A stretch of 64,000 nt of DNA from the NCBI GenBank assembly GCA_000091205.1, contig AP006502.2; one strand, 5' to 3'. Shown piece by piece: positions 1 to 50,455 of this stretch (positions within the stretch are counted from its first letter, which is position 1; the number at the start of each line of letters is the position of its first letter). Under the pieces are notes generated by a model. The model saw nothing but the letters and a program-made list of their open reading frames with translations. It did not search any database and was not told the origin of the DNA. Made by a program: the position numbers and the translations under genes. The stretch is from Cyanidioschyzon merolae. Lineage: Eukaryota.

Positions 1-1291
1 GCTCTAGCGTGGATCCCTCCGATTCAGAGGCGTGCTCCTCAGCAGCTAACGCTGTCTCACTATAGTATTGCTTACCACCCGAGAGCGTAGCGAGCATCCG
101 CAAGAGTCCCGACGCGGCATCGATGTCGCCAGCAGTGCGCGCCTGGCGTTCTTCCATGGCGGGCCAGTGTGCGCGTGGCACGTAGACGCGACTGCGGTCT
201 TCCAGATGACACGTCCGTAGGCCTACCTCGATCGCAATGACCCAACTGAGCGCTTTACCCCAACCACAACTGTAAAGATGAGGCTGGTCAAGGGCTTCCT
301 CGCAGGGGTCTGCATGGATCCAGGTCTCCCTCGATTCGCTCCAAAACTCTGTCCAAATATGATCTTCAAAGTCGAAGACGAGTCGAACACGAGGCACCGA
401 GCACGCACAGAGGGCTAACGCAAACGCCTGGGCCCATTCTCCGCATCGGCCGCGTCGGCTTTCGGTAAGTAAAAACAGCGCGTCATTGTACCGGGGAAAG
501 CGTACGAGCGCCCCGCAACCTCGCTCGTCCGTGGGACACTCGTAGACCTCTACGCGCTCAGCTGCATGCAAAGCTTCACTGGCGGCCGGCAGGTCTACGC
601 CTTTCAAGCGAAGTGTGCGTATTCCACAGTGCTCACAGGGCGGGCTGTCCACCCACTGGAAGTGTTCTCGCTTGAACCAGTGCAGTGCCTCTCGTACAAC
701 AGCCGCAGTAAAGCAGATGTCCGCCAACGGAAGAGCATCCCCTGCTGCCGGCTGGTTATCGACCCCAATACCGGGTTCAGTTTGGGAGCGTGCTAATTGA
801 GAAAAATGGCTTTCTGCCGACTGTTCAAAGCGCTGCACTGGTACAACGCCGCTAGCTCGGGCAGCTTCGACTTTCTGAGCGTCAAGGCGGCTGGCTTGCA
901 CCCAGTGTTGCAGTATGCGGAACAGGAATGTGAGACACTTTGTCGCTGATTCTCCGCGTTTAAGCAGCAACAGGCAGGAGCGAAAAGGTCCTCGGGTGCG
1001 ACGCGCTAGTTCAGCGTGCGACTCTGCCAGCGCGCCTAGGACTGGGAGCAGCTCTTCGACGCTATGACCGCCGTCTGCACGCACTTCTGTGCCGACTTTC
1101 AAAGGCATATCCAGAGCATCGCACCAGAAAATCCAGCACAGGTGCTGCGCACTGGGCTCGATCCCTGATAAACGTTGGAGCTCGGTTCGCCAGCACGCCA
1201 GGGAAGTCGTTTCACCGATCTCTGCCCGTGAGAAAGTATAGCACATCGTCTTGCACCATACACCCAACGTTCCGTCGTCATCGTGCGCCAT
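1..1291 (-). CDS. peptide:N-glycanase (PNGase, transglutaminase-fold), 3' end truncated by the window edge
   Basis: I translated the reverse strand by hand: a stop-free frame runs from the candidate ATG at 1291-1289 to position 1. It contains FQWVDSPPCEHCG..RFPRYNDALFLLTESRRGRCGEWAQAF...DFEDHIWTEFWSE..WIHADPCE, the PNGase catalytic Cys/His/Asp core. The ORF track omits it because there is no stop inside the window. Confidence 0.7.
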   Translation of the reverse strand, partial: MAHDDDGTLGVWCKTMCYTFSRAEIGETTSLACWRTELQRLSGIEPSAQHLCWIFWCDALDMPLKVGTEVRADGGHSVEELLPVLGALAESHAELARRTRGPFRSCLLLLKRGESATKCLTFLFRILQHWVQASRLDAQKVEAARASGVVPVQRFEQSAESHFSQLARSQTEPGIGVDNQPAAGDALPLADICFTAAVVREALHWFKREHFQWVDSPPCEHCGIRTLRLKGVDLPAASEALHAAERVEVYECPTDERGCGALVRFPRYNDALFLLTESRRGRCGEWAQAFALALCACSVPRVRLVFDFEDHIWTEFWSESRETWIHADPCEEALDQPHLYSCGWGKALSWVIAIEVGLRTCHLEDRSRVYVPRAHWPAMEERQARTAGDIDAASGLLRMLATLSGGKQYYSETALAAEEHASESEGSTLE

Positions 1292-2146
1292 TTCGGACCA
1301 CCGGTTTACACCCTCGAGCAGTTGTTTCTGTTCCACGCTTGAAACGGAAAGGAAGCGTGCATGGAACTGGCGTAGAATTGAAGCCCGTCGCGCAAACGTT
1401 GCTGCGCGCACCGTTGAGACGCACACGGTCAACGGACGCGTTCGTGCTGGAGGCATTCGAACGGAACATATCCGGTGGTGCGCGTGATTGCCTTCAGAAA
1501 GGAAGCATACAAGGGTCCTGCGATCCCCGGGCGGGTGCCGAAGTGCAGTCCCAGCACCGGACGCAATATGGATCGAAAATGCAGGGACTTGCTGGCGTCT
1601 TTCCCGCATTCCGCTAGAGACGCTTGCACATCTAGCAGCGCCCAGAAATATCTGCTGGCTATGAAAAAGGTTGCGGAAACGGAACTGTAAGCGCGGGGGC
1701 GTTACTGCAGGAGTTCCAAGTGGTGCAACCCAGGCGCCCAGTTTGCAGCGGAACTCTGCAACCGCATCCCGCCGTCATGGCGAACAAGCACACAGCTTGC
1801 GCCAAGCAGACGCACATGATCGATACTTTCTCTCGCACACGACGCAAAGGATATGCATTCGACACGTATTCCGAGTTTCCTATTCCGTGGGCGATGCGTC
1901 TCCAGTACGTGTTGGCGCGTGAACGCTCCGCGTCGGCTGTCAGTACGGATCGTAGTGCTGGATGCTGGAGGCGAAGCGTCTCCATCGCACGTTTTTGAAA
2001 GCCTGCACGCATGCCGGGAGGCAGCGCGCATGCGTGCGCGCGCACGCATCGCATCGCAGCGCGCGCACGCATCCAAATCCTCCGTGCTCGTTCAAGCTCG
2101 TCTTGGGGTTGAGGATCCGCTTTTACGACAACGCAGAGAGGAACCT

Positions 2147-3433
2147 ATGTCAGTCCAACTACGCACAGCGGAGACATACGCAACACGAAGTAATAGTCAA
2201 CAGAGCTTGCTGAGAAATAGTGAGGGCGTGCAGTTCCCGCGCCGCTGCAGCGACCAGCAACTCTTGTTTCGGCAGTGTGGCTATCCGCCGTCGCTCGGGG
2301 CGAGCACAGCGGGCGTCGGTCAGAAGAGAGAGCGGTCCAACGAAGCTACGCTTACTGATTTGCTGGAGAGGGAACTGCTCCAGCGTCCAGTCGCGCGCCC
2401 TTTTGCTCGCATTCGGCGGCAGCGCGGGCACCCGAACGACGCAACGCCAGCGCAAACCCGTCGCCTCCATATGGACGGCGTGAGTCGGTTAGGTTCGCCA
2501 GCGCCCCAGCGCGTCGAGACACCGACGGAGCTCGAAAGCTGGTTGCACTCTGCGTTGAGGCCGAAAGAGGTAACCGCCTCTATCGGAGATCAGGCGGCCT
2601 CGGAGCCCGTTGGCGAGGCCCAAGTCCCCAGCATCCGTCGATTGCTGAGACTCGCTTCCCAACCGCAGCTCTCGAAGCATGCGTCGCCAAACGGGCAGCC
2701 TCGGGCTGACTCTTCTGCCCTAACGCCAAACGCAGCTGCGCAGCAACAATCACCCGGCAGTACCTCCTCACATGAATCGCCTTCATCGTTCGATTCAATT
2801 GATGAACAGGCATGCATGGGGGCGCTATTGCGAGCATCCTTAGATCCACAACGAGCGCAGCGCCTTTTAGAGTGTGGTGCTGTACAGTACCTCGTACAGA
2901 AACTTCGAGATTCCACGAATTCCCAGGTAGTGACGCAGATAGCGGCCGCGCTGGTGAACCTCGATCCCGCGACTACCCCAGTTCCGGGGCTTGCGCAGGC
3001 GCTCAGCAAAAAGCTCTCTCTGCTGACGTCTGAATGTTCCGAGCGGTTGATGCTCTACACCCTTGGAGACGGCTCGAAACCAGTCCTTAGTCGAGTTGAG
3101 ATCGACACACTTGCGCGGCACGCGCTCGCTTCACTGCCGCGGCATCTTGTCTTGCTGCGGCGACTGGCGGAGCTGAGTGCTGGCGGAGCGAACGGCCACG
3201 CCACCTTCTGGAACCATGCCGCGGTTCAACTGATCGAAAAGCTGAAGCCGGCAACAGCCGCGCAGGCAGAGCATCTCCTTGCGATCTTACAAACCATCCC
3301 CCTGGCCTGCATACAAAACAAGCGAGCAGCATTCGCCAACCATATTGTCATCCACATCGCTTCGCGCTTTCCCGATCAGAATAGTGTCCAACGAGCCGCT
3401 GTGGAACTGCTCGGAAAAATTGCTGCTGCCTAG
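2147..3433 (+). CDS. hypothetical helical-repeat (ARM/FAST-like) protein
   Basis: This is the C-terminal part of ORF 1853..3433. It includes LLECGAVQYLVQKLRDSTNSQVVTQIAAALVNL (armadillo-like) and a protein-like C-terminus. The region 1853-2146 is Arg-rich and probably a spurious N-terminal extension, so I placed the start at the in-frame ATG at 2147. Confidence 0.4.
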   Translation: MSVQLRTAETYATRSNSQQSLLRNSEGVQFPRRCSDQQLLFRQCGYPPSLGASTAGVGQKRERSNEATLTDLLERELLQRPVARPFARIRRQRGHPNDATPAQTRRLHMDGVSRLGSPAPQRVETPTELESWLHSALRPKEVTASIGDQAASEPVGEAQVPSIRRLLRLASQPQLSKHASPNGQPRADSSALTPNAAAQQQSPGSTSSHESPSSFDSIDEQACMGALLRASLDPQRAQRLLECGAVQYLVQKLRDSTNSQVVTQIAAALVNLDPATTPVPGLAQALSKKLSLLTSECSERLMLYTLGDGSKPVLSRVEIDTLARHALASLPRHLVLLRRLAELSAGGANGHATFWNHAAVQLIEKLKPATAAQAEHLLAILQTIPLACIQNKRAAFANHIVIHIASRFPDQNSVQRAAVELLGKIAAA

Positions 3434-6859: not shown

Positions 6860-9454
6860 GACCGCCGCATACAGCGCTGCACTGGCCGTTGGTCGGATGG
6901 TGGCGGAGGCGATGGCGGATATGCTGCGGCGCTTTACATGTCGACAGATTCCCAGGATTTCAAAGACCCGGAAGGCAACACGTTCAAAGTTCGTTGCTAT
7001 GAAGCATGAGCTTTCGAAAGCGGGTTACGAAAGGTAACTCGCGTCGGGCATACCGTTCCCTTGCGGGCGAAGCGCACGTCGGCAGCGGGCGACAGCCCCG
7101 CACGCTTCACAGCGCCGAGCCCCTGCCTGAAAGAGCGTCCGCTGCGCTCGGGCGTCGCTACCCAGCAGTAAGTTCGCAGAGTAGGCCTGCACGTGCTGCA
7201 TAGTGACCGGAGCCCGTTTCCAGCAATACTTTGCGCGACTCGCAGACCATGGTTCACCGACTTGAGGTAGGCTTGCATCAGCGGTCTTCCCGTTCGCAGG
7301 CGAAACTGCACTGAGCTGCTCGTTCACCTTGAAAGGTCGCGATTGGCAAGCACGGTACAATGCAGAACATTGAGGGGGAACGGTACCGCATGTGCAAAGT
7401 GCTCACATCGATCAGCGTGCGGAACGATATGTACATCCATTTTCACGCGATACCTATCAACCATCATCATGGTTTGGCTTCTGGTGCCTCCAGACCAAAT
7501 CCCGTGCTCAGAGGATCGCGCTTCTTTCGACGCATGCTGGTGCACTCGCCCGAGGACAGCGGGAACAGCAAACGCATGTCGCCGCAGTGCATATACGCTG
7601 GATGGACGACCACTCGCTTTCGAGCAGTCGACGCTCGCGAGTATTCAGCAAACGTCTTCATCATGACGATGTCGCAGTTCCGAGGAATACGCTGTGACAC
7701 AGCGGCCGGTGTCGCGTTCCTGGCATCCCGCTCCCTTGTTGGCGCTCGTGCGTCCGCATGTGCACCGAAGGACGCACCAGTGCGCGTCTACGCATTCGGG
7801 GTACCAGCTGCGTTGCGACGCCACCGAAAACTCGCGAGTACGCGAAGCTTTGCTGGACGCACACCCTAGTATTGCTCAAAACGAGCACCAAGTAGAGCAG
7901 CACCTGCCCATGGAGTTGGTACGACAACAATGTCGTGCGTGGTAACCGAGCATTCAGGTGCTGAAGCGCGCAAACCCTTCACAACCGAAAATACCACCGT
8001 CATCGCGAGCGTCTCGCAGACAGTGCAGGAGGCGACGCGTACAACCAGGTCGCCTTGTAGGAGGCCTCCCTGGGCCGCTGGTGACCCAGCCTCTACCTGC
8101 ACCACCTTTGCGAACGGTCTCAGGTTCGACTGACCCAGACTCGTCTCAGTCCAGTCTGAGCTTTGTGCTGGCTGGTTGTCTCCGGGGCGGTGTTCCCGGC
8201 TCGAGGCAGTCCGCACCGCTGGTGCGCTCTCCACGACTCGTGACGCAGACGCTGTAGACGGTGCGGTTTGCGTGTGTGCTGGCCCGCTTGGAAGCATCTC
8301 CGGAAGCAGCCTTCCAGTTTCTTTCATTATCAGATAATAGTCGGTTTGCAGGCGCACGAGACGTTGCCAATACTGGCGGATCTGGTGTACATCGCAGTCC
8401 GAACGGGGGAAGCCGTCCTCGTGAACGAGTGGATCTCGCACCCCGGCAGGCGTGGCTTCTAAGCAGGATACCAAGTGTTCAATGTCACGCACGAATTCTT
8501 CTTACTGTAGGGCTAGCGCTAGTAGGCGCTGTACGCTGTCGGAGGTCATTTGTTCGACGTCTCAGACAGGCGAACGACGGCGCGTAGCTCCAGGCGTTGC
8601 CCCGGGAACCTTTACGGACGAGGTCGTTTACGAGGCTCAGCGTCCGAAGACCATAAAACGAAAGTATCATCGGAACTTGGCTCGAAAGGAATCTGGGCAG
8701 AGTGCTGACGCTGTATACGATTTTTGAATGACGACAACAACAGCGACAACCGGCCTCATGGCATGGTCAGAAATCGGGACTGTCGAGCAGTGGGACGCAC
8801 GAAAACCGCACAATTCAAACCAGTTTCTCATTCCAGCGTCTGTGCAGAATGGACTGCAAGAAACGGGAATAAACGTGCATCCGTAGTCGGGAAGACTGCG
8901 GCGCATAGTTTGTTTACGATCAATAAAACGAACGAAATTCCTGTTGAGTAGGGTGATGCATACCTCGCCCGCACAAGCGTAAGATACTACAATGGCTACG
9001 CTTTTGATACAGGCGTCGAGGGGTATCGTGCCAGGCCCCTGCATCCCCTTGTCTGTCAGGGCGGTACTGCGATGGGCAGTAGCGTCGGCACCAGCGACAG
9101 AACCTATAGCAAGAGTTCATTCTACGTGAGTTTCCGATGTACAATACGTTGTTTTGGCTGCAGTGCACCGGTGAGAGCACGCATGTGCCAATGCGGGGTG
9201 TCGGACACGTGTCCTTCATCGATCGGTGCAGCGTCTCGCGCGGTGCACGCATCGCGCTCAGTGCGCGCACCTAGGAGATCAGGCAGGCGTGAGACACGAC
9301 GCGCATGCCGCCGTTGAAGGGAAACGTAATCGTAATCCGTAGCGTCTAGCTCTCGTGTAAAAGTTGTATTTTCATTGACTTCATGGGCAAGTGTAGTTTT
9401 CAGTTCAATTGTGTTTGAAAACTCAAACAAGTGTATTCTAGTGTTTTGTCGCAG

Positions 9455-9462
9455 TATATAAG
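9455..9462 (+). promoter_or_regulatory. TATA box (TATATAAG) about 53 bp upstream of the Fanzor-like ATG
   Basis: Canonical eukaryotic TATA in gcagTATATAAGagg. It is followed by an A-rich leader, and the ATG is at 9515. Confidence 0.4.
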
Positions 9463-9514
9463 AGGAGCGTTCAAAGAGGGTTCTTTTTCAAAAAAAAACT
9501 AAACAAGGAAAGTT

Positions 9515-11801
9515 ATGAAAAAGCAAGTCGACGATCCAGGAGGCCCAGTGTCGCCGGCTGCCAGAAAGAAAAAACAAAACACAGTGCCGAGTCCAGAAGA
9601 AGAGGAGAAGAAAAAGAAGCAAAAGGAGGAGGCTCTACGTCGAGTGCTGCAAGAAAGACAACTGTACGACGAGATGGTTGTGAAAGCTGGTCTTCTTGGA
9701 TATATCAAGGATCCCTACAGGGAAAAGTTCCGAGGCGCTATCAGAAAACGTGTCGATTCGTACTCCAAGAGTACTGTCAAGGCGTCGTCAGGACTGATGC
9801 ACTCGGCGAGGGAGATGTATCGCGACGTGACGTACATGGAAACAGTCGAGGTCCCAGACGAGTTGTTCGACACGACCTTTATTCGATACTTGATGCTCGG
9901 TACCGGGGAGATGCGAAGGGAAAATGAGCGAGTGCACGCCCTCTGCCAAAAATACTCCTTCTACAGCTTCGAGGGTACTCGAAACAAGGGTGACTCGTGC
10001 ATTTACGAATACGGAGCGATAAAGTACCCCACGAACCTGAATAAACATTTGACCGTGAACCTCGAACGTTTCATGATACGCGCCGTGTTTGCACTCTACC
10101 CGGGCATCTCTCGCAAAGCGATATGGATCATCATCGATAGCATCAAAAACGATAGTAAGAATGAACAGGAGATCGAACTTGTTCACGAGAAGACATCATG
10201 CAGGAAAACGAATGAAGCTTCTGTAATCCGTGCGGCTATACAAGAGCACCGTGCAGCACTGGGGCTGGCGAGTCCAGCAGAAAAGATATCAGAGTTGAAA
10301 AAAGATAAGAAAAGATACGATCGCCCTGTCCTGCGCTATTCCATATTCCTGAACGGAGAACTGGAACGCAGGGCCGATATGGAGCACGGTGTGGAAGCAA
10401 ATGCAGTGCCGGAGAAACGGGAAGCTGCGCTTCTGGCGAGGCATTTCAACGTCGTTCGGTTACGCGAGATCAAGTCCCATTTGTGACGATCGACTCCACA
10501 GTCTTTCAGGACATCATGAAGGAGATCTGTCCGGATTTCGATGTCAGCAGGGAGGTGTTCTCCGGTGAAAACCGGGAGACGTTTGAAATCGAAGATATTC
10601 TGCTTCGATTTCAAACGCCTCAAAGTGAGCAAGCAAAAGCTATCCGCGGGGATGATCGAAACCGATGGCGTAGCCATGTGTGTTGACTATCGGCGGTTGA
10701 AAAGCGATCGTCCTGGCCCGTCTTCGATATTGCCCGTGACGAAGCATGAAGATGAGAAGGAGGCGGGTCCTGCGACGCAGGAGGTGGAGGATAACGGCTT
10801 TATCGTTGGCGCGGTGAAGCATGATGAAAACAAGAAGGCGGATCCTGCCACGCAGAAAGCGCAGGATAACGACTTTGTCGTTGGCGCGGACCCTGGGAAC
10901 ACGAATATCATAGCCATCGCAGTACCGAAGCGTGCGGAATATGGTCACGACGGTAACTTGCGCCAGAAGGACATGCGTCTGTCGAGATTCTCGACAGCGA
11001 GATACCATTGAGAATCCAGTATAATGAATGTGAGGAAGAAAATCGAGACATGGAATCCAGGAATGAAAGAGCATCTGGAAGCGATGAGCGAGGTGACGAG
11101 TCGCGGAGCGGACTGTAAAGCTTTTCGGAATTTCATGGAAGTTCGTGTTGCGCATTGGGATGCACTGTGGGAGGAGTATACAAAGCCCTGGTGGGATCGT
11201 CTACGTATTAATCTATACTGTCGGAAGCAAGGTGCATTCAAGAAAATTTTCGATGAGTTCAGCGCCTTGAAGGAGGATGAAAGTCAGAGGCTCGCATTAG
11301 CGTACGGAGCAGGGCGCTGGGCTCCGAAAAAAGGGTGTACACCAGCTCCAACTACAAGAACATACAAGGAGTGCGCAAGGCGTTTCGCTACGATACCTGC
11401 AGATGAGTTCCGAACATCGTATACACACCATGGACTGGGGTGCACATTTCAAAAGGTCGAGATGGGAAAGTGTTAACGGAGCCCTGAAGATATCAAAAAA
11501 GTACGGACCGCTGACAGAAGAGCAAATGGAAAGAAAAGCGAATGTTCGAGGGCTATTCGCATTAGTAAGTACAACCAATGGCAAGAAACTTATGCGATTC
11601 CTGTATCGCGACTTTGAGGCCGCTATCAATATAAGGGCATGTGCGGTGCTGGAGCATAGACCTCCAGAGTTGACACGAGAGAATTTTATGGGGCAACCTG
11701 TCAAAGTGGGACTATATGAGAAAACTATGAAACCAGTAGCAGGTGGCCGGTCGAGAGAAACTGGGAGGCGTCTGCAGCTCAGTTGGCGACTTCGTGTCTA
11801 G
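9515..11801 (+). pseudogene. Fanzor/TnpB-like RuvC nuclease (OMEGA family), disrupted
   Basis: The N-terminus is Lys-rich (KKKQN..EEEEKKKKQKEE) and NLS-like. RuvC-I is VVGADPGNTNIIAIAV at about 10881-10930. A TS..C zinc-finger region (DEFRTSYTHHGLGC) follows. RuvC-III is RDFEAAINIRA at about 11607-11640, matching the TnpB RDxNAAxNI signature. The reading frame is broken by stops at 10484-86 and 11009-11 and by frame shifts near 10480, 10630 and 11400-11476. Confidence 0.7.
10741..10890 (+). repeat. 75-bp direct tandem duplication inside the Fanzor-like ORF, just upstream of RuvC-I
   Basis: Unit 1 is 10741-10815 (gaagcatgaagatgagaagg...cgttggcgcggt) and unit 2 is 10816-10890. They encode HEDEKEAGPATQEVEDNGFIVGAV and KHDENKKADPATQKAQDNDFVVGAD. 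The duplication is in-frame and present in both element copies. Confidence 0.6.
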
Positions 11802-11818
11802 GGCGCGGGTCACGCGCC
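11802..11818 (+). other. GC stem-loop (GGCGCG-ggtca-CGCGCC) immediately after the Fanzor-like stop codon, near the right end of the element
   Basis: A perfect 6-bp inverted repeat with a 5-nt loop, read directly. It is conserved in copy 2 at 40240-40256. Its position at the 3' end of the nuclease ORF is where TnpB/Fanzor guide-RNA scaffolds and IS605-type end hairpins lie. Confidence 0.35.
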
Positions 11819-11963
11819 ACTACTGTACACCGGTGGCGTCGTTCGACTCTCGAACGGCGTTTGGTACGTGAGGAACAAGTTACCGGCCTCTGATGCGTGC
11901 TTCGCTTCAAGCCTCGGGTGACAAAGTCGTTTTCATCAGGACTGTACCGTTTCTTTCTTTCGT

Positions 11964-12917: not shown

Positions 12918-13952
12918 ATGAAGCGTTTTCCTGTGCAACAACGGGATGCTGAGGATCCTATCGAAGAGATCGCAGCCAACCGCTCACAAGCGTTTGCGTA
13001 AACGCAGTCCTTGCGCCATATCGGTCGCCGAGGTTGATCCAGCGTTTACGTACAGCGTTCTGTCCATTCATTTGCTTTCGATCAAACGATGTAGTTGCAT
13101 ATGAATCACATGTGACATGCAGTTGGGAGAAGCGGAATGGCACACGGGCTCCCGTGTATCGTACTAGGATGCAAACGCATGTGCAATGTGTGTGTGTGTG
13201 TCTGTGTAAAAGGGAAGTCTTGAATCGGCTGCAATCCACGGATGAATTCACACCACGCTTTGAGAGTTTTCTGTCAAGATCTGGGTTTCCCTGACCATTT
13301 GTGAGCTCTCGTGATGGAACAAAGCTGTTTTTGGATATAGAACGTGTTTATCGAGGACATTTTCCATGGATATCAGGTGATATTCAGAACAGGGGATTCT
13401 ACAATGCCTGTACCAGCATAACTTGTTTGTTTTAGGTGTATTATCGCTGGTATTCGATAAATTAAATGAATTTATCGTGTAGATTGGAGAAAGGTCGCGT
13501 AAATACTTGATGATGTGACTGGTAGTTTGCGAACAACGGCCTTGCATGTACGCATCAGTCACACCACATTCAGCAGGTGTGTGAATCACGCGCCTCGTAG
13601 ACCTTCCAATGAACGTCGTGTACCCGAAACAGAAGTTATCAAACGATATCCACGCGATTGTCTCGTATTCAATGTATTCCCGTATAGAATCCCACTGAGA
13701 AATTCGATTAGTGAAGCCACCGGACGTGAACTATTCGCACTGTTGACATGGACGGCGTTGAATAGACATGGATGGATAAAGGAGAAAGCACGCTTGGATG
13801 CCAAACCGTCTCGTGTTCAAAAGTGCACTGTCGATTTCGCAGTCAACCGATGACGCCGCTTTCAGGTTGGAAAGATGCTCGTTTCACTCGATGAGATTTC
13901 AGTCGGGAGACATGGCAGACTTGTATGTAGACATTGAAAGAGAGGTAAACCG

Positions 13953-15885
13953 CTGTTCGTAAGGAGGAGACGAGCGAGCATGCCGATATCATCCGTTCGC
14001 GGGCGATTCAATCGTACGATCGCCTAAACAGGTAACACAATACGCAGGACCTAACAGCACCTCATCCTTCGTCGAGGCACTCGTCGGGTTTCCCGCTTCC
14101 TATGATGTTCCGTGCTGCTTTCAGGAAACGCTGGTTTCCATCACTCAGAATCTGCCAAGGAGTATGCAACTGAGGCTGGCATTGAGCCGCTCTTCGTGCC
14201 CGCCTATTCTTTCTGGCTCACTCCGATTGAGGGCGTTCCCTCTGTTCCCGAACGCCATTGTTACGTTAACGGATCATTAGACGGGTCACTCGCTTCTACG
14301 ACACCGTTCTTTGAGGAATCGTTCTCTGCACTCAACAATCCTGAGCCGCTGTGTTGCTTTTCTGCTCGTTGGCGGGATGCGGTGGAGGCGCGCGCTTCGG
14401 TCTGTGGGTGTTCGCGCTACGGAAAACGCCATGAAAAGGCACCTGAGACAGCACAGATCCATGGAGACATAGAAGGAGCGAGTTCCGGAGCCACCGTCTA
14501 CCCAGTGCCTCTGGAATCCGACGAGAAAGCGTACATAGCGTACAGCGACGATACCCATGACTCCCCGCCATGTCAAGGACACGGCGATGGAAGAGCTGGT
14601 CTCCGCGGGCAAGTACGCAGCATTCGAACAACTCTGCGAAGGGCAATCAGGAACGCGCCCAGGTTTTCTTGCCTACAGGGATAGGCTGAAGGAAATGTAC
14701 ACGGGCGACAGACGCTGATGGAATATCAATCAGCACGCACTTTGTGAAGCCGGGACCTCTGTCGCGACATTGGACGCATGCCCGAGCCCTCACAGTAGAG
14801 GAAGCGAAGCGAACGCTTTGTGGCGGGCGTGGATCCCGCGTCGAAGAACATCACATTCATCGCCGTATCGCTAGATATAGCGGACGCAACCAAAGACCTG
14901 ACCTGAAACCAGGTGAAGCCGTTTAACTTTCCCACTACGCGATTTCATTGGGATTCGGGTACGGTGGAAGTCCGGAGGTATCCGAACATCTGGAACGACA
15001 AGGTCGGAACCGATCCCGATGCACCGAGCACCGTACGGAGCAGAGGCGAATGCTTCGTGCGCTTCATTCAGGAAGTACGCGAGTGTCGAAATGAACCATA
15101 TGGGCGGTTGCTGGCAGGATAACCTGGGATCACGCTGAACTCGGCAACGGTATCGGTAGAACGTAGACACGACTCGCGCATTCGCCACTTCCCTCAACGG
15201 GCCGGAAACCCAGGTGATCTCAAAGTCGTGTCGTTTGGTGATACAAGTCAATGGCCTTAGACGTGATGCAATGCCCAGAAGCCCGCACTCCCGGTCAAAC
15301 GGCCAGACCGAACAACGAGTCCAGGAATCGAGTATCTGCGAGACCCATCGATGCGTTCAGCACGACATGTGTACGCATCACGAGCATGCGGGCCCGCTGA
15401 ATCTGGTAGAAAGAAGAGCGCGACACATAGACGGATGCACGAGAAGGTGCACAGTGAGGTGACTGAGCGTCAAATGGCGAGGCGGTTGCAGGTGGGAAAC
15501 GTGCTATGGTGTGATTCCAAAAGGCATTCATGTGCGCTGGGGCACGCCCCGCATTGAGCACTGAACGTGTCGAACGGCAACCGATGATGACCCGCGCTTC
15601 CGGAGCGTCCAGCTGCTTTGTATGGCGCGAATGTTCAAGCGAATCGTTTCATAGCTCGTGTAGGCACTGTGGAAAATGCGGAGCACGTTCGAGAGCGTAA
15701 AATTAGGGTGCCGGAGAGAAGGCACTGGATTCTCGCCTGGATCCAGGCAGTCGTGTAGACCGGTTCAGCAATCCATCAAGGCTGGGTCACCTTGTTTAGA
15801 GATAAACCAGGGCGGATTTCCCTTTGGGAGACTGGTGAAACAACAAGGGATACGATTCCTCGACATTGCAGGGTATACATGAAGA
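13953..15885 (+). mobile_element. Repeat family B copy 1: 1.9-kb interspersed repeat containing a Tc1/mariner-type transposase C-terminal fragment
   Basis: Co-linear with 30454-32386 at an offset of 16501 bp. Paired ORFs are near-identical and the flanks are unrelated. Confidence 0.65.
14106..14684 (+). pseudogene. DDE transposase tail (Tc1/mariner/IS630-like), 5'-truncated and degenerate
   Basis: LLSGNAGFHHSESAKEYATEAGIEPLFVPAYSFWLTPIEG aligns with the mariner ..DNAxxHxs..vkefl...gi..l.wPaYSPDLNPIE block, including the third catalytic E. The DDE residues upstream are absent: the repeat begins only about 150 bp upstream. Confidence 0.5.
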
Positions 15886-16087: not shown

Positions 16088-18609
16088 GTTTTGGTATTCC
16101 TGCGGAGAGCGACTGCGGACATCACTCGCGCGGCCGAGCGCTCGTCGTTTGTACGCGCCCTTAGACCAGTTCACGGGTTTCCGCTGGTCAAAGATGACGA
16201 TTCGTAACCACCGTTTCCCTTTCGAAGGTCGTAGTGCGTCTCACTATTACACGGGGGACAGTCGTGTGTCACGTACAGGTGCGAGCGCGCTGCACACTGC
16301 ACAACCGCTGCGCGGGTTCGACGCAGGGACACTGCGGCCTGCAGCGGGTCAGCGGTACCCGACCGCAAGCATGCGCGCTCCCTGTGCTGGCTACCAGCTG
16401 CCACCGGACTATGTGATTGTCGCGATTGCAGGAGCTTTGCTCGCTGGAGCGGGGTTCATGCTTCGGAGTCTTGGTGATGTGATCGGAGAAGAGTCGCGAC
16501 TTCCGTCAGCGAGCAGTGCGAAGACGCGCAGGGAGCTGTACGGAAGCCGGCGTTATTTGCAGAAAAAACCGCCTCGAGACACAAAATGAATACAGATATG
16601 CCTCTAAAGACTAGCCAAGAGATGTTTCTCTGCTCAGCAAGGCGTCACGAGTGTTTTTAATTTTGGAGAAGGGGAAAGCGCGAACGATTCTCCAGGTCCG
16701 TCACCAATGAGGATTCGTAATGGAGCAGCAGATGCTGTGCATGGGACACGCGTTTCTTGAGCAGAGATTCACCCGGTCGTGTGTGACTAGAGCCAAAATA
16801 TGGCGTGACCAGCGTGGGTGGAGCATGTGCGCGAACAGGTCGGGCGTCTCTCCCGGTGGTATTCATCGCCATTGAAAAATTGCTTCCAGTGCGTTTTCTG
16901 GTCACTGTGCATCAGGAAAAGAGCTTTGCTGACCGCGCATAGAACGCTAACGCATCGACTTTTTATGTGCATTGAGTATGTGGCCGCGTCAGGGCGATCC
17001 TCTGCGCCTTATGCGCCGTGCACACGGTACCGGCTCGATACCGAGGTGGTGGTCGTTTGTCGGACTCGAGGCGAGCACAGGTGTAGCTGCACTGCGTCGA
17101 GACATTTGAGATTTTCAGGTGGTGCGAAATCGTGTTTACTGGACTATCAATCAGCGTCCTTGCTAACGATGCTGTGGCTCTCTTGCGTCAGGATGGACAC
17201 CGAGGCTGGCAGCTGTTCCGTAGGAGACGCGACCTTAACACACGCGATGCGATTTCGCTTGTTTTCTCGATGATGCTTTTCGGGGCCAGGGCCCTGGTGT
17301 TGTCGGCGTCGTTGTTGCGGATGCAGTTGCTCGCCCATGGGCCATGAGCGTCTCTGAACGTAATCTCGCCATGACTGGGACTTTGGATGAAACCGCTCTT
17401 CCTTGATGGAGCGCTGTGCGGCGGCGGATGGATCTCGGAGACATTTGTATCAGCTGAGTGTTTTATGGCCCGGCGACTGTCTGTCACCGTTTTTACGGCG
17501 ACAACCGGATGCATGCATCGATCCGAGGCTGATATGAAACCGGATACATCCGATCGCCCATATCTGTGAACGATTTTGTATGGTATATAATCGATAAATC
17601 TGACCAGAATCCCCGGAATGCGCGGTTGCCTTCGGCGACCACGAAAGAGACCGCCGCGTGCCTGTCGATGCTTGGATGTCCTGTCGACGTGAGGCGACTC
17701 TTCCCATCGGAGACGCGGATACGCTTCAACCAATTGAGGGTTAGCGGGCGCCGATCCAACCGTGGAAGCTTGCTGCTACGCTGAATGCTTCGTTCCCTAA
17801 GAGACAGGGTTTTAATCGATCGAAAGACAAATTTGGACTGGCCAACACGCCCACGAAGGCTCGCGGCAAAAATCCCGAATCCTTCGCTGCCAACATCCTC
17901 TAGAAATCGTACAGCTTTCCGATTCTCGTACGGGCGTCTGCTCTTGGTTGCCAGAGGGTTGTGAGCTGAACGACCCCACAACGCGCCTTGGCTCTCCGTG
18001 ATGCCGGTAGCAGTCGCGCGCTCCTGCATCGCTGCGTACCAGCTCCGATCCTGACCCATGACGGAGCGGGCGCGCCAGGTCTTTTGATCACCGACATGCG
18101 TGCGCAGCGACGGTCTGTCCTGAATATCAATATTCGTACAGTTTCTGTTTCGTGTTTCCAGCACGCCGCGATGCACGTTTTCCGCGCGCGAGCATTCAGT
18201 TGCCACGTGCGCCGTCGCCAGGGAGATTGCAACGCCACTGCCAGTTGCGATCTGCGCTGCGTGATGCAGGGCACGCTGTGCACGCTCGCGCACCGCTGCG
18301 ATTCAAAAAGATCGCACGATCCGGTGCACGCGCGCACGCATTCGCCAGCATCCGTGTCGCACATGCGCGCTCGCACGATGTGTGCTATCATGCGACCTCT
18401 AGTGCGTACGCACGAGGTATCGCGTAACCCTTGTGTGCGAGTTGGAACCGGGCACTCTGAACGAATCGATAACGCATTTGACAGTCGAGGGATATTTTAT
18501 GCTTAAGGGAATGGGGAAAGGTTGTGCTGTACGATTTAGGGACGGGAGCGCAGCGAACACACTGGGCGAGACGGAACAGTCTTGTGCTGGTCGCTCGTGT
18601 TACGGGCAG

Positions 18610-20322: not shown

Positions 20323-20464
20323 GCAGCGTGCGCCTCAGGGTCACACAAAGTTCGCATCTTGACTTCATTGTCTAGTTTCTTGGGAGCATACTGCAACACG
20401 CTGCTCTGTGCACGCCGGAGCGCATGGCAGGGACCCTGCTGTCGAGAACGCTTCTCATCCAAAA

Positions 20465-20640
20465 GTCCGTAAATATACGAGGGAAATCGATCCAGCTGCA
20501 GTATCAGTGCATCACCACTATTCCCGAGGTATCCCGAGCATCGCAACGTATATCCCAGAGTCCGTAAATATACGAGGGAAATCGATCCAGCTGCAGTATC
20601 AGTGCATCACCACTATTCCCGAGGTATCCCGAGCATCGCA
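20465..20640. repeat. Two tandem copies of an 81-bp unit (period 95 bp) in the region downstream of the BASS gene
   Basis: gtccgtaaatatacgagggaaatcgatccagctgcagtatcagtgcatcaccactattcccgaggtatcccgagcatcgca occurs at 20465-20545 and again at 20560-20640. Confidence 0.85.
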
Positions 20641-26656: not shown

Positions 26657-27816
26657 GGCGCTTTCGAACCTGCGCCTCTACCCTGTAAGTCTACCACGCG
26701 TTGCAGTGCAACAGCGTCAAACGTCAATGTCTTATGAAGCAACGTCGCCGAACGCTGCCGGTCAGGCGGTACGCGTCACTGCGAAAAGTGAATCCTCATG
26801 TGAGGCGCACCTGCTCCGTGCATCTACGGGGTCGTTTCTATGAAGCAGTTTTTCGGACGAGAATGTTCATTGGGGATGCCGTCGACTAGGTCATTAGGGT
26901 CCTGCCACCAAAGGCAGTGTATATTGTCCACTCTGGTGTCAGGAAGAAAGCTGCACCTTTTTACAGACCGCCGCTTCTAGGTGGACCTACCATTCTTGAG
27001 CGGCGTTTGCGGATATAGAACGCAAAGCCGGCACCGGACCGCATGCTGACTGAACCAAGAAGCTCGTTTATGGACACCAAAGACACACGTTCTACCTCCC
27101 GGGTGGTAGGTCCCGCGAACCGAATGAGCACACAGGTCTAGCGTGTCGTGCACCTGCTCACTTGTTGGTATCGAGCCAAGGCCTGCATCACGAACTGGCG
27201 ACGCAGTTCATGCATGGTGGCGAAGGTAGCGTTCAGTGCCCGGATATTCGTGCTACTTGCCGGATTCGCTCCACGATTCGCACCACACACTGGCAAGCCT
27301 GTACATGTCGAGCGTCGGAGCAGAAACGAACCACGAGACCTGACCTCGCCTCGAGTCGACGTACTCCATGGCATGGTAACGCAGTGCCAACTCCGTGTTG
27401 TGTCCGTACCGATCATACAGGTGCTGCGGCGGGTGCTCGCAGCAGGCACTCGACGCTCCGCGAAAACCTACGAACGGACTAGTACCGCCCGGGAAAAGGA
27501 CGTCCAGCGGCTAATCGAACGCGGATCTCGGGTCTGGAAAGAAGGACGCTTTCCCGAATGCCGGTATACACAGAGTCATCAATCTAGGATCCTTCGTCCG
27601 TGTAAACGTGATGTCCTTGGAAACAGGTTACCAGGTCTGACTGCCTGCAAGCACTCCAGAGTACTAGCGGCACTGAGCGGCAACTGGCGTGGAGGCTTCG
27701 GATGCGCTTCCCGGGGTGCATCGCTCGATTCACCGATCGCTGGTAAATGGATCACCCTGACTTGTGCGTAACTGGAACCTTCTAAATATCATTATTGGGA
27801 GGCAAGCGTTCCCCTT

Positions 27817-37893: not shown

Positions 37894-37901
37894 TATATAA
37901 G
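37894..37901 (+). promoter_or_regulatory. TATA box (TATATAAG) of Fanzor-like copy 2
   Basis: Same motif and spacing as in copy 1. Confidence 0.35.
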
Positions 37902-37955
37902 AGGAGCGTTCAAAGAGGGTTCTTTTTCAAAAAAAAAAACTAAACAAGGAAAGTT

Positions 37956-40239
37956 ATGAAAAAGCAAGTCGACGATCCTGGAGGCCCAGTGTCGCCGGCT
38001 GCCAGAAAGAAAACAAAACACAGTGCCGAGTCCAGAAGAAGAGGAGAAGAAAAAGAAGCAAAAGGAGGAGGCTCTACGTCGAGGGATGCAAGAAAGACGA
38101 CTGTACGACGAGAAGGTGGTGAAAGCTGGTCTTCTTGGACATATCAAGGATCCCTACAGGGAAAATTTGCGAGACGCTATCAGAAACCGTGTCGACTCGT
38201 ACTCCAAGAGTATTGTCAAAGCGTCGTCAGGACTGATGCACTCGGCGAGGGAGATGTATCGCGACGTGACGCACATGCAAACAGTCGAGGTCCCAGACGA
38301 GTTGTTCGATACGACCTCTATTCGATACTTGATGCTCGGTACAGGGGAAACGCGGACGGAAAATGAGCGAGTGCATGCCCTCCACGAAAAACATCCCTTC
38401 TACAGCTTCGAGGGTACTCGATACAGGGTTGACTCGTGTATTTACGAATACGGAGCGATAAAGTACCCCACGAGCCTGAATAAACATTTGACCGTGAACC
38501 TCGAACGTTTCATGATACGCGCCGTGTTTGCACTCTACCCGGGCATCTCTCGCAAAGCGATATGGATCATCATCGATAGCATCAAAAACGATAGTAAGAA
38601 TGAACAGGAGATCGAACTTGTTCACGAGAAGACATCATGCAGGAAAACGAATGAAGCTTCTGTAATCCGTGCGGCTATACAAGAGCACCGTGCAGCACTG
38701 GGGCTGGCGAGTCCAGCAGAAAAGATATCAGAGTTGAAAAAAGATAAGAAAAGATACGATCGCCCTGTCCTGCGCTATTCCATATTCCTGAACGGAGAAC
38801 TGGCACGCAGGGCCGATATGGAGCAGGGTGTGGAAGCAAATGCAGTGCCGGAGAAACGGGAAGCTGCGCTTCTGGCGAGGCATTTCAACGTCGTTCGGTT
38901 ACGCGAGATCAAGTCCCATTTGTGACGATCGACTCCACAGTCTTTCAGGACATCATGAAGGAGATCTGTCCGGATTTCGATGTCAGCAGGGAGGTGTTCT
39001 CCGGCGAAAACCGGGAGACGTTTGAAATCGAAGATATTCTGCTTCGATTTCAAACGCCTCAAAGTGAGCAAGCAAAAGCTATCCGCGGGGATGATCGAAA
39101 CCGATGGCGTAGCCATGTGAGTTGACTATCGGCGGTTGAAAAGCGATCGTCCTGGCCCGTGTTCGATATTGCCCGTGACGAAGCATGAAGATGAGAAGGA
39201 GGCGGGTCCTGCGACGCAGGAGGTGGAGGATAACGGCTTTATCGTTGGCGCGGTGAAGCATGATGAAAACAAGAAGGCGGATCTTGCCACACAGAAAGTG
39301 CAGGATAACGACTTTGTCGTTGGCGCGGACCCTGGGAACACGAATATCATAGCCATCGCAGTACCGAAACGTGCGGAATATGGTCACGACGGTAACTTGC
39401 GCCAGAAGGACATGGGTCTGTCGAGATTCTCGACAGCGAGATACTATCGAGAATCCGGTATAATGAATGCGAGGAAGAAAATCGAGACATGGAATGCAGG
39501 AATGAAGGAGCACCTGGAAGCCTTGAGCGAGTTGACTAGCCGAGGAGCGGACTTTGAAGCTTTTCGGAATTTCATGGAAGTTCGTGTTGCGCATTGGGAT
39601 GCACTGTGGGAGGAGTATACAAAGCCCTGGTGGGATCGTCTACGTATTAATCTATACTGTCGGAAGCAAGCTGCATTCAAGAAAATTTTCGATGAGTTCA
39701 GCGCCTTGGAGGAGGATGAAAGTCAGAGGCTCGCATTAGCGAACGGAGCAGGGCGCTGGGCTCCGAAAAAAGGGTGTACACCAGCTCCAACTACACGAAC
39801 ATACAAGGAGTGCGCAAGGCGTTTCGCTACGATACCTGCAGATGAGTTCCGAACATCGTATACATACCATGGACTCGGGTGCACATTTCAAAAGGTCGAG
39901 ATGGGAAAGTGTTAACGGAGCCCTGAAGATATAAAAAAGTACGGACCGCTGACAGAAGAGCAACTGGAAAGAAAAGCGAAGGCTTGAGGGCTACTCGCAT
40001 TAGTAAGTACAACCAATGGCAAGAAACTTATGGGATTCCTGTATCGCGACTTTGAGGCCGCTATCAATATAAGGGCATGTGCGGTGCTGGAGCATAGACC
40101 TCCAGAGTTGACACGAGAGAATTTTATGGGGCAACCTGTCAAAGTGGGACTATATGAGAAAACTATGAAACCAGTAGCAGGTGGCCGGTCGAGAGAAACT
40201 GGGAGGCGTCTGCAGCTCAGCTGGCGACTTCGTGTCTAG
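37956..40239 (+). pseudogene. Fanzor/TnpB-like RuvC nuclease, copy 2, disrupted differently from copy 1
   Basis: A 2-bp deletion near 37990 splits the N-terminus into ORFs 37956..38366 and 38023..38925. The stop at 38923-25 is shared with copy 1. Copy 2 reads through where copy 1 has TGA (tatCGAgaa here versus catTGAgaa at 11009-11011). An extra stop (gcTTGAggg) lies near 39985. RuvC-I GADPG and RuvC-III RDFEAAINI are retained. Confidence 0.65.
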
Positions 40240-40385
40240 GGCGCGGGTCACGCGCCACTACTATACTTCCGACCGCAGCAACGTTTGGTGGGTGAAGGCA
40301 GCACGCCTCATTTCGAGTGCTGTGCTCGAGTTTATACCCCAGCTGCGGGAACTTTTGCGGATAGCCATTTCTCGCCAAGTGTCTC

Positions 40386-49670: not shown

Positions 49671-50455
49671 ATAACAGAGTGGACTATGAAGCACTCGCCG
49701 AAGCAAGGCCCAAATCCTGGTTTTCATACCATGGCGATTTACCCAGACTATAGTATGTACGCCCGGGCTGGTTAAATGGACCGGTTCCTCTTTGCCCTAA
49801 AGTACGCAGAGAACACAGACACGCTGAGCGATTCTGAGCAGCACTGGAGTGACTTCTCGGAAAGTGGAACCGTCGTTGGATCCCCGAACTCCATGTCCAT
49901 ACGTTTCCCTTAGATTTCATATTTCTTCAGATGAACGCAATTCGTACATATCTGTTATAATCCGCGAGAAAGCATTTGATTACATGCATCTCGAACTGGA
50001 ACCCAATTCAGCCGAAAAACTGGAAATGGGCATACGAGATCGCCCGTGCGTCCGCAATCCTAACGACCGCATCGACGAAGGTGATCCAACAATGGACAAA
50101 AGATATCTTGCACATCGCCTCGCACACGTCGCATGCTAAATACTCAATCATAGTCATTTAGGCATATTTATATCCTAAAAGTACACAGTGTTTCCGATCG
50201 CCCCCAAGCTGATGCGCACTGCCCGCGTCCCCGCAGACACGCGAAAGAGCGCGCGCGCGCGCGGCTGAAGGCTCGCGATCTCCGCATACCCGCAGTAGCG
50301 CCCCATGGGCGGTGGCGGCAGCGCTCCTTGGCGCCAACGCTGATCCCGCGCATGCATGCGAGCGCACGCACTGTAGCGCGTCACGCTGTGACCTGTAGAC
50401 GCCATAGCATTTCGGGTCCTGAGGCAGTGGAGCAACACGCTCAACATCGACTGAA

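What the first reader, a model, noticed from the sequence alone, without database searches (positions are those of the whole stretch)
9440..9620. Eukaryotic-style expression signals on the nuclease gene: TATA box 53 bp upstream and a lysine-rich NLS-like N-terminus
TATATAAG sits at 9455-9462, and again in copy 2 at 37894-37901. The ORF opens with KKQVDDPGG...ARKKKQN..EEEEKKKKQKEE. A canonical RNA polymerase II TATA box and a basic N-terminal tail are what distinguish host-adapted Fanzors from bacterial TnpB. This argues the element was, at least ancestrally, expressed from its own promoter and imported into the nucleus, rather than being a recent prokaryote-derived insert.
Basis: partly seen in the sequence, partly recalled or inferred. 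Interest (0 to 1): 0.55.

Follow-up and report, generated by a model that had tools for sequence, protein, structure and literature searches.

The report
Dead Fanzor transposon copy: TATA word, basic tail
The flagged TATA motif and lysine-rich start belong to two broken copies of an already published red-alga transposon nuclease gene (Fanzor1 family CMe-1); both features are inherited family traits that fit a former own promoter and nuclear import, but nothing here is new or still working.

Summary
TATATAAG lies at 9455-9462 and 37894-37901, 53 bp before the ATG, and copy 1 opens with a basic tail.

The window is Cyanidioschyzon merolae 10D chromosome 20. The gene is a copy of CMe-1A, the Fanzor1 transposon family published by Bao & Jurka in 2013 (about 150 copies, about 80% identical to consensus). 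A profile search and a predicted fold both match solved Fanzor1 structures.

Both window copies are pseudogenes. They share frameshifts and a stop, and each has private lesions. They lie in one 4.9-kb duplication that is 98% identical, so their agreement on the TATA word carries no information.

Across 48 non-redundant copies from hot-spring metagenomes the homologous site reads T[T/A]TATA[A/G]C. The TATA core is present in 85-94% of them. The perfect TATATAAG is a minor subfamily variant, and the published consensus has TTTATAGC. The site is no better conserved than its neighbours.

Eight verified host genes in the window have no TATA box. The basic cluster ARKK.K recurs in many copies, and N-terminal nuclear localization signals in Fanzors were shown experimentally in 2023.

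Verdict: a real but ordinary feature of a known, old eukaryotic transposon. Promoter and nuclear-import function are plausible and untested. Low interest.

The parts
9455..9462 (+). TATATAAG, a perfect TATAWAWR match 53 bp upstream of the ATG (copy 1)
   Evidence: The homologous site in 48 non-redundant family copies reads T[T/A]TATA[A/G]C.
37894..37901 (+). The same TATATAAG in copy 2. It is not independent, because it lies in the same 98%-identical duplication.
9253..9514 (+). Core 5' leader of about 262 bp, shared by all CMe-1 subfamilies whatever their 5' module. It is AT-rich (42% GC) and is the candidate internal promoter plus 5'UTR. The copy 2 equivalent is 37692-37955.
   Evidence: published consensus positions 648-905; most metagenome loci share homology only from about 9250; GC content.
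8794..9252 (+). Alternative 5' module of the window's subfamily, standing where CMe-1A has its TE-N2_CMe-like 635 bp. In the window it is cut off at 8794 compared with metagenome copies. The copy 2 equivalent is 37233-37691.
9515..11801 (+). Fanzor1 (CMe-1) pseudogene, copy 1. Lesions: -1 frameshift near 10480, +7 at about 10589-10602, TGA at 11009, TAA at 11474, +1 at 11494. RuvC residues are still readable: Asp 10889-10891 (GADPG), Glu 11405-11407 (DEFRTS), Asp 11610-11612 (RDFEAAINI).
   Evidence: The repaired protein is 74% identical to the published CMe-1 protein.
37956..40240 (+). Fanzor1 (CMe-1) pseudogene, copy 2. Lesions: frameshift at about 38009 inside the basic tail, -1 at 38919, +7 at about 39028-39041, TGA at 39118, TAA at 39913, TGA at 39985.
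9563..9574 (+). Basic cluster 1, R17-K20 (RKKK), in the family-specific N-terminal extension. Many copies keep it as ARKK.K.
9608..9625 (+). Basic cluster 2, K32-K37 (KKKKQK). With cluster 1 it fits a bipartite pattern (KK-X11-KKKKQ). It appears to correspond to the clade-wide N-terminal K[KR]RPDRxxKLxxRK motif and to the start of a predicted helix.
10741..10889 (+). Two tandem 75-bp (25-aa) units just before the RuvC-I Asp. The published consensus has one unit and relatives have several (four or more in P0105, P0113, P0115). The stretch is predicted to be disordered.
11802..11864 (+). 3' untranslated end of the element with small hairpins (GGCGCG..CGCGCC and GTTCGA..TCGAAC). Homology among copies stops after ...GGCGTTTG(G). 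The high-identity duplication stops earlier, at 11828.
6902..11828 (+). Copy 1 of the 4.9-kb duplication. It consists of 1.9 kb of non-element DNA carrying a Nas2/PSMD9-like ORF (7866-8492, minus strand) followed by the 5'-truncated CMe-1 element. The partner is 35341-40266.
49878..50021 (-). Solitary fragment of the CMe-1 leader plus start codon (consensus 789-928, 69% identical). The TATA-homologous site reads ATTATAAC.

Best explanation
Interval 9440-9620 is the proximal 5' leader and the first 35 or so codons of a degenerate, 5'-truncated copy of CMe-1, the known Fanzor1 transposon family of Cyanidioschyzon merolae. The second occurrence is the same locus, copied within a recent 4.9-kb segmental duplication.

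Shown: the identity of the element, its Fanzor1 membership, its pseudogene state, and the family-wide presence of a TATA-core word about 50 bp before the ATG and of a basic N-terminal cluster.

Inferred: when the family was active, the roughly 262-bp core leader that every subfamily carries acted as an internal RNA polymerase II promoter. The T[T/A]TATA[A/G]C word would then be its TATA element. The start site would lie in the T/A-rich tract about 25-30 bp downstream, giving a 5'UTR of about 20-25 nt. The basic N-terminus would have carried the nuclease into the nucleus, as shown experimentally for other Fanzors. It may also contact RNA or DNA.

In this window the signals can no longer yield a nuclease, because both ORFs carry several frameshifts and stops.
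For: Host. Exact protein look-ups place the window on C. merolae 10D chromosome 20.

Identity. The published CMe-1A consensus (PMC3627910, Additional file 2) aligns over its positions 648-3169 to 9253-11859 at 80.7% identity and to 37692-40286. The repaired protein is 74% identical to the published CMe-1 protein.

Fanzor1 membership. A profile of the family plus 60 distant relatives hits solved Fanzor1 chains: PpFz 9cf0 (E 2.9e-25), SpuFz 8gkh (E 4.7e-19) and GtFz 9cer (E 1.7e-12). An AlphaFold model of the relative P0105 (pLDDT 82.5, pTM 0.80) matches SpuFz best (E 2.4e-16, target TM 0.71-0.73).

Family-wide TATA core. In 48 copies less than 95% identical to each other, the columns T-A-T-A are present in 85, 90, 88 and 94%. 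Two lineages keep the core while the flanks differ: TTTATAGC and TATATAAC.

Shared leader. All subfamilies share the leader from about 9250 despite different 5' modules.

Basic N-terminus. ARKK.K recurs in many of the copies listed, and relatives carry K[KR]RPDRxxKLxxRK. In the literature, about 60% of Fanzors have a predicted nuclear localization signal, and 21 of 22 N-terminal ones worked in human cells (PMC10530073).

TATA use in this alga. A TATA-containing human IL-2 core promoter functions in C. merolae (PMC12770821).
Against: There are no transcript or start-site data. The 2013 table marks the Chlamydomonas Fanzor families as 'Expressed' but leaves CMe-1A blank. The 323-aa ORF is absent from the 15-billion-protein collection.

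The TATA columns are no better conserved than their neighbours. The 4-column mean of 0.89 falls in the top 15% of windows, and the 8-column mean of 0.79 is average. Non-coding conservation (0.80) equals coding conservation (0.80), as expected for neutral decay.

Only 13 of 48 copies match TATAWAWR with at most one mismatch in register, and the published consensus has three mismatches. The leader is AT-rich, which favours such words by chance.

None of the roughly 70 sampled copies has an intact ORF from the ATG, so motif state cannot be tied to activity. Basic cluster 2 lies in a predicted helix conserved across the clade, which suggests a structural or nucleic-acid-binding role in addition to, or instead of, nuclear import.
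Confidence: 0.6

Rival explanations
1. The TATA word is an incidental AT-rich word in an AT-rich transposon leader. Expression of the family, when it was active, came from elsewhere: from the exchangeable 5' module (TE-N2_CMe-like or the alternative module) or from read-through from host genes.
For: The site is not more conserved than neighbouring columns. The canonical form is rare (2 of 48) and the published consensus is weak (TTTATAGC, 3 mismatches). The leader is 42% GC, against 51-66% for host upstream regions. Each subfamily carries a long, distinct 5' module upstream that could hold the real promoter. No endogenous C. merolae promoter has been dissected (PMC12770821).
Against: The TATA core persists at a fixed distance from the ATG in two long-diverged lineages. 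A perfect match is expected in only 0.6-3% of shuffled upstream sequences. The core leader, not the 5' modules, is the part common to all subfamilies.
Confidence: 0.3
2. The basic N-terminus is mainly a nucleic-acid-binding or structural segment of the nuclease rather than a nuclear import signal.
For: Cluster 2 appears to correspond to a clade-wide motif, K[KR]RPDRxxKLxxRK, at the very N-terminus of about 55 distant relatives. It also lies in a confidently predicted helix, residues 4-27 of P0105 with pLDDT 68-90. The profile match to SpuFz 8gkh begins at profile position 12, so this segment is part of the conserved protein.
Against: Fanzor N-terminal 100-residue segments drove nuclear localization in 21 of 22 tests (PMC10530073). 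Cluster 1 (ARKK.K) sits in a Pro/Gly-rich extension specific to the CMe-1 family, which looks like a free tail. The two roles do not exclude each other.
Confidence: 0.3
3. The element is a recent prokaryote-derived insertion. This is the alternative the first reader argued against.
For: None was found.
Against: The published family has about 150 copies at about 80% identity to consensus (PMC3627910). Eighty related loci were found on Cyanidioschyzon-like metagenome contigs. The closest solved relatives are eukaryotic Fanzor1 proteins. NCBIfam, which models bacterial and archaeal protein families, gave no match.
Confidence: 0.01
4. The apparent frameshifts are introns or programmed frameshifts, and the window gene is functional.
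For: Three lesions are shared by both copies.
Against: The lesions are 1-nt and 7-nt indels and in-frame stops measured against an uninterrupted 734-codon consensus. Each copy has further private lesions. The shared lesions follow from the duplication of an already dead copy.
Confidence: 0.02

Closest known systems
CMe-1A / CMe-1 Fanzor1 transposon family of Cyanidioschyzon merolae (Bao & Jurka 2013, Mobile DNA 4:12, PMC3627910)
   Same: It is the same family. The published consensus positions 648-3169 align to both window copies at about 81% identity. The repaired protein is 74% identical to the published protein, with the same N-terminus, M[EK]K.V[ED]DPGGPVSPAA.KK.K. The leader, including the TATA-homologous site, is already present in the published consensus sequence.
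   Different: The window copies belong to a subfamily with a different 5' module in place of the TE-N2_CMe-like 635 bp. They read TATATAAG where the consensus reads TTTATAGC. They carry two units of the 75-bp repeat instead of one, and they are pseudogenes. The 2013 paper does not discuss promoter or import signals; 'TATA', 'promoter' and 'nuclear localization' each occur 0 times in it.
Structurally solved Fanzor1 nucleases: SpuFz1 (8GKH, 9CEU and related entries), PpFz (9CF0), GtFz (9CER)
   Same: They match at family-profile level (E 1.7e-12 to 2.9e-25). The predicted fold of the intact relative P0105 matches SpuFz with target TM 0.71-0.73. The RuvC Asp, Glu and Arg-Asp columns are invariant.
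   Different: Sequence identity is only 13-15%. CMe-1 proteins miss the Pfam threshold for the zinc-ribbon TNB domain (E 0.15-0.5). CMe-1 proteins also carry a disordered tandem-repeat linker before RuvC-I. No guide RNA or nuclease activity is known for CMe-1.
N-terminal nuclear localization signals of Fanzors (Jiang et al. 2023, Sci Adv, PMC10530073)
   Same: It is a short basic N-terminal region on a eukaryotic TnpB homologue, with mono- and bipartite consensus patterns present.
   Different: The CMe-1 tail was not among the items I could verify as tested. Its function here is inferred from pattern and conservation only.
Bacterial TnpB of IS200/IS605 and IS607
   Same: It is a distant RuvC/TNB homologue. 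17 of 72 clade members match Pfam PF07282.
   Different: CMe-1 is eukaryotic and multi-copy, with a long helical N-terminal half, a basic tail and an AT-rich leader carrying a TATA word. NCBIfam, which models bacterial and archaeal proteins, gave no match.

Membership tests
Fanzor1 (CMe-1 family) | Sequence homology to the published CMe-1A element and CMe-1 protein | tested here: met
   80.7% identity over 2.6 kb; 74% protein identity; tblastn.
Fanzor1 (CMe-1 family) | Homology to, and fold of, experimentally characterised Fanzor1 nucleases | tested here: met
   family profile versus PDB gives PpFz (2.9e-25), SpuFz (4.7e-19) and GtFz (1.7e-12); the model of relative P0105 (pLDDT 82.5) matches SpuFz best (E 2.4e-16). 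This was tested on an intact relative that is 62% identical to the repaired window protein, not on the broken window ORF itself.
Fanzor1 (CMe-1 family) | RuvC catalytic Asp, Glu and Asp | tested here: met
   GADPG (Asp 10889-10891), DEFRTS (Glu 11405-11407) and RDFEAAINI (Asp 11610-11612) are readable in the window. These columns are invariant in the 72-sequence alignment. They lie in different reading frames in the window because of frameshifts.
Fanzor1 (CMe-1 family) | Zinc-ribbon / TNB domain (Pfam PF07282) | tested here: inconclusive
   CMe-1 proteins score below threshold (E 0.15-0.5, matching only the RD..NAA end). 17 of 72 clade relatives match, best 9.6e-11.
Fanzor1 (CMe-1 family) | Intact ORF encoding an active RNA-guided nuclease with its guide RNA | tested here: not met
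   Both window copies carry at least 5 disabling lesions. No guide RNA was tested. The window therefore holds pseudogene copies of the family, not functional members.
RNA polymerase II TATA-box core promoter | Match to the TATAWAWR consensus | tested here: met
   TATATAAG has 0 mismatches.
RNA polymerase II TATA-box core promoter | Position about 25-35 bp upstream of a mapped transcription start site | not testable with these tools
   No transcript or start-site data are available. No endogenous C. merolae promoter has been mapped (PMC12770821).
RNA polymerase II TATA-box core promoter | Preferential conservation among independent copies | tested here: inconclusive
   The TATA core is present in 85-94% of 48 non-redundant copies and in both lineages. 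It is not more conserved than neighbouring columns. Only 13 of 48 copies are within one mismatch of the 8-mer consensus.
RNA polymerase II TATA-box core promoter | TBP binding or promoter activity | not testable with these tools
   This needs a reporter assay or ChIP.
Classical nuclear localization signal | Monopartite K-[KR]-X-[KR] or bipartite [KR][KR]-X10-12-(3 or more of 5 basic) pattern | tested here: met
   KKKK at residues 32-35, and K19K20-X11-KKKKQ (pattern scan of my own; no trained predictor was available).
Classical nuclear localization signal | Conservation of the basic cluster among relatives | tested here: met
   ARKK.K recurs in many of the 47 copies listed. A basic N-terminal motif is present in about 55 distant relatives.
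Classical nuclear localization signal | Importin-dependent nuclear accumulation | not testable with these tools
   There is only the analogy to 21 of 22 other Fanzor N-termini that worked (PMC10530073).

The most novel reading that the evidence does not exclude
The roughly 262-bp leader common to all CMe-1 subfamilies is a self-contained, TATA-dependent Pol II promoter that the transposon carries with it. The host genes of this genome, 0 of 8 in this window, appear to be TATA-less. If so, it would be the first defined endogenous core promoter element in C. merolae, and an example of a Fanzor element carrying a promoter architecture that differs from its host's.
Probability: 0.3. Interest if true: 0.35.

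Novelty: already known. Interest (0 to 1): 0.15.

Why it matters
It matters little. The element, its consensus sequence (which includes this leader and N-terminus) and its Fanzor1 assignment were published in 2013. N-terminal nuclear localization signals in Fanzors were demonstrated in 2023.

The one modest gain is a concrete, testable candidate for an internal TATA-type promoter. It sits in a model alga for which, as of 2025, no endogenous promoter has been dissected. If it proved active, the short leader could be a useful compact promoter part. It would also show how a nuclease-only transposon without its own transposase secured expression.

The analysis carries one warning for the scan as a whole: agreement between two copies inside a recent duplication is not conservation.

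Tried and rejected
- Pfam and NCBIfam scans of the repaired protein and close relatives found nothing above threshold. The precomputed Pfam label on relatives is only DUF8286.
- A profile of close relatives alone found no PDB chain. The first AlphaFold run, with a shallow 30-sequence alignment, failed (pLDDT 35.8) and was not used. Both problems were solved by adding distant relatives from the 1.84-billion-protein search.
- An exact look-up of the 323-aa ORF returned 'not in the collection'. There is therefore no gene call or transcript-assembly evidence, but this is too weak to count as proof that the ORF is silent.
- I looked for intact family copies, to ask whether active copies keep the TATA word. 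None of the roughly 70 sampled copies is intact from the ATG.
- I considered introns or programmed frameshifting and rejected both.
- I considered that the whole 4.9-kb repeat is the transposon and rejected it. Family homology starts at 8794 (or 9250), and the 1.9 kb to the left carries a host-like Nas2/PDZ ORF.
- Literature searches for start-site or TATA data in C. merolae found only a statement that none exist.
- The bacterial promoter/terminator scanner was not used, because it does not apply to a eukaryotic nuclear genome.


Full report
**1. Observation**

The sequence is as described. TATATAAG occupies 9455-9462 and 37894-37901. An ATG at 9515 opens a 323-codon ORF that begins MKKQVDDPGGPVSPAARKKKQNTVPSPEEEEKKKKQKEE.

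Perfect TATAWAWR words are rare in this GC-rich window: 6 on both strands against 2.5 +/- 1.8 expected, with 8 of 100 shuffles reaching 6. A perfect match arises in about 3% of shuffles of the 250-nt upstream region and in 0.6% of shuffles of -120..-21. The word is mildly unexpected on its own, no more than that.

**2. The two copies are one duplicated locus**

A self-comparison shows a single direct repeat, 6902-11828 versus 35341-40266, 4929 bp long and 97.9% identical. It begins 2.6 kb upstream of the ATG.

**3. Host and identity**

Eight long ORFs of the window are exact matches to annotated proteins of Cyanidioschyzon merolae 10D on a 1,621,617-bp contig. Two of the matches carry the locus names CMT068C and CMT069C, a 428-aa cluster member is CMT049C, and the remaining matches are unnumbered products including E2F, ZDS and ABCB6. 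The window is therefore nuclear chromosome 20 of this red alga.

Bao & Jurka (2013, PMC3627910) described one Fanzor1 family in this genome, CMe-1A. It has about 150 copies, each about 80% identical to a 3169-bp consensus. It encodes a 734-aa protein, has no terminal inverted repeats, and its 5' 635 bp equals another element, TE-N2_CMe.

I took the consensus from their Additional file 2. Its positions 648-3169 align to 9253-11859 (80.7%) and to 37692-40286. The frame-repaired window protein is 74% identical to the published CMe-1 protein and shares its N-terminus.

**4. Fanzor1 membership, checked independently**

Close relatives alone gave nothing in Pfam, NCBIfam or PDB, and a shallow AlphaFold run failed. 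A profile search of 1.84 billion representative proteins found 2758 relatives.

A 72-sequence alignment of these hits solved Fanzor1 chains: PpFz E 2.9e-25, SpuFz E 4.7e-19, GtFz E 1.7e-12. 17 of its 72 members match the Cas12f1-like TNB domain.

With this alignment the intact relative P0105 folds at pLDDT 82.5 and pTM 0.80. Its best structural matches are SpuFz, PpFz and GtFz (E 2.4e-16 to 3.0e-13, target TM up to 0.73). The RuvC Asp, Glu and Arg-Asp columns are invariant and are readable in the window.

**5. Both window genes are dead**

Lesions are measured against the uninterrupted consensus.
- Copy 1: a -1 frameshift near 10480, a +7 insertion at about 10589-10602, TGA at 11009, TAA at 11474 and a +1 at 11494.
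- Copy 2: a frameshift at about 38009 inside the basic tail, the same -1 and +7, TGA at 39118, the same TAA (39913) and TGA at 39985.

The shared lesions show that an already dead copy was duplicated. The lesions are small indels and stops, not introns.

**6. Extent of the element**

Eighty related loci from hot-spring metagenome contigs were compared with the window.
- Most share homology only from about 9250 onward. This is the core, equal to consensus position 648.
- About ten share a further module from 8794.
- Those ten continue upstream among themselves, but not with the window.

So the window element is a 5'-truncated member of a subfamily with an alternative 5' module. It spans about 8794-11864. 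Homology among copies ends after ...GGCGTTTG(G).

The left 1.9 kb of the duplication is not transposon. It carries a Nas2_N plus PDZ ORF without an ATG start.

**7. Is the TATA word a family feature?**

I aligned the region -165..+105 of 68 distinct copies and reduced them to 48 that are less than 95% identical to each other. The homologous site reads T[T/A]TATA[A/G]C. The four core columns T-A-T-A are present in 85, 90, 88 and 94% of copies.

| Word at the site | Copies (of 48) |
|---|---|
| TATATAAC | 10 |
| TTTATAGC (the published consensus) | 6 |
| TTTATAAC | 4 |
| TATATAAG (the window's perfect form) | 2 |

Thirteen of 48 copies are within one mismatch of TATAWAWR.

Two lineages can be told apart. 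One reads ATGGAAA with TTTATAGC, the other ATGAAAA with TATATAAC. Both keep the core at the same distance from the ATG.

The site is nevertheless not special. Its 4-column conservation of 0.89 is in the top 15% of windows and its 8-column value of 0.79 is average. Non-coding and coding columns are equally conserved (0.80 and 0.80), as expected for copies decaying neutrally from their masters. None of the roughly 70 sampled copies is intact from the ATG, so motif state cannot be linked to activity.

**8. Host context**

None of 8 host genes with verified start codons has a TATAWAWR within 250 bp upstream, and one has a single-mismatch word. Their upstream regions are 51-66% GC, against 42% for the element's leader. 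A TATA box is thus not a sign of adaptation to this host. If it is functional, it is the transposon's own device.

A 2025 study states that no endogenous C. merolae promoter has known TATA or start-site positions. It also shows that a TATA-containing human IL-2 core promoter works in this alga (PMC12770821).

**9. The basic tail**

Copy 1 fits the monopartite pattern (KKKK, residues 32-35) and the bipartite pattern (K19K20-X11-KKKKQ). Cluster 1, ARKK.K, recurs in many family copies. Many copies are frameshifted in this A-rich stretch.

Cluster 2 appears to correspond to a motif, K[KR]RPDRxxKLxxRK, found at the N-terminus of about 55 distant relatives. It also lies at the start of a confidently predicted helix. 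It may therefore have a structural or nucleic-acid-binding role as well.

Jiang et al. (2023, PMC10530073) predicted nuclear localization signals in about 60% of Fanzors. They showed that 21 of 22 N-terminal segments drive nuclear localization.

**10. Verdict**

The finding correctly spotted two real features and correctly concluded that this is an old, eukaryote-resident Fanzor. It overvalued the second copy, which lies in the same duplication. It also overvalued the canonical form of the motif, which is a minor subfamily variant, and the status of TATA boxes as a Fanzor hallmark, which the two Fanzor papers searched for the word do not mention. It missed that the genes are pseudogenes of a published family. 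Promoter and import function remain inferences.

Novelty: already known. Interest: low.

Noticed in passing
13948-15876 and 30448-32377: A second direct repeat pair (98.2% identical). It carries the C-terminal part of a DDE_3 (Tc1/mariner/IS630-type) transposase (Pfam E 1.4e-6), followed by a distinct, degenerate Fanzor-like RuvC-I segment, FVAGVDPASKNITFIAV. That segment matches CMe-1 by tblastn (33% identity, E 5e-7 and 2e-8) and the Fanzor1 profile by hhalign (probability 82%, E 1e-5). Bao & Jurka list only one Fanzor family for C. merolae, so this may be a second, mariner-associated one.
   Followed up: partly
10741-10889 (copy 2: 39180-39328): A 75-bp (25-aa) unit directly before the catalytic RuvC-I Asp is tandemly repeated: once in the published consensus, twice in the window, and several times (four or more) in metagenome proteins (P0105, P0113, P0115). 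The AlphaFold model predicts the stretch to be disordered (residues 374-469, pLDDT below 50).
   Followed up: partly
7866-8492 (-), with an equivalent position inside the copy-2 repeat: A Nas2_N plus PDZ (proteasome subunit PSMD9/Nas2-like) ORF lies inside the duplicated 4.9 kb but outside the transposon. The Nas2_N match starts at profile position 14, and there is no in-frame ATG until about residue 56. It may be a pseudogene or a mis-started gene, and it is present twice.
   Followed up: partly
6902-11828 versus 35341-40266: Divergence between the two duplicated copies is mosaic. It is about 0.7% in the non-transposon part. Inside the transposon there are patches of 6-7% (9652-10151, 10902-11151) next to nearly identical stretches. 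Both copies still resemble the family's 3' end beyond the identity break at 11828. This suggests patchy gene conversion from other family members.
   Followed up: partly
23651-23940 (+) and 27093-27615 (-): Fragments 63-69% identical to the first 290-534 bp of the CMe-1A consensus, that is, to the TE-N2_CMe-like 5' module, occurring without the nuclease gene.
   Followed up: no
49878-50021 (-): An isolated 144-bp remnant of the CMe-1 leader plus start codon (consensus 789-928). It lies about 430 bp upstream of CMT069C, in the opposite orientation.
   Followed up: no
11802-11864, and loci L085-L088, L028, L049: The last 20 or so bases of the element form a small hairpin whose arms differ between subfamilies while keeping complementarity (GTTCGA..TCGAAC versus TTTC..GAAA). 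Homology among copies runs about 5 bp beyond the end of the published consensus (...GGCGTTTG). This could be part of the transposon end or of a guide-RNA scaffold.
   Followed up: no
20457-20545 and 20552-20640: A near-perfect (98%) tandem duplication of 89 bp with 95-bp spacing, just downstream of the SBF-family transporter ORF (18433-20322).
   Followed up: no
Upstream regions of the host genes starting at 2147, 27817, 40404, 50456, 58167, 62486 (+) and 45486, 47972 (-): None of these 8 verified C. merolae genes has a TATAWAWR word within 250 bp of its ATG. This hints that host promoters in this genome are mostly TATA-less, though the sample is small.
   Followed up: partly
Proteins P0137-P0282 (relatives; not in the window): Distant relatives of the CMe-1 nuclease share a short N-terminal motif, K[KR]RPDRxxKLxxRK, immediately after the start codon. 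I found no description of it in the papers I read.
   Followed up: no
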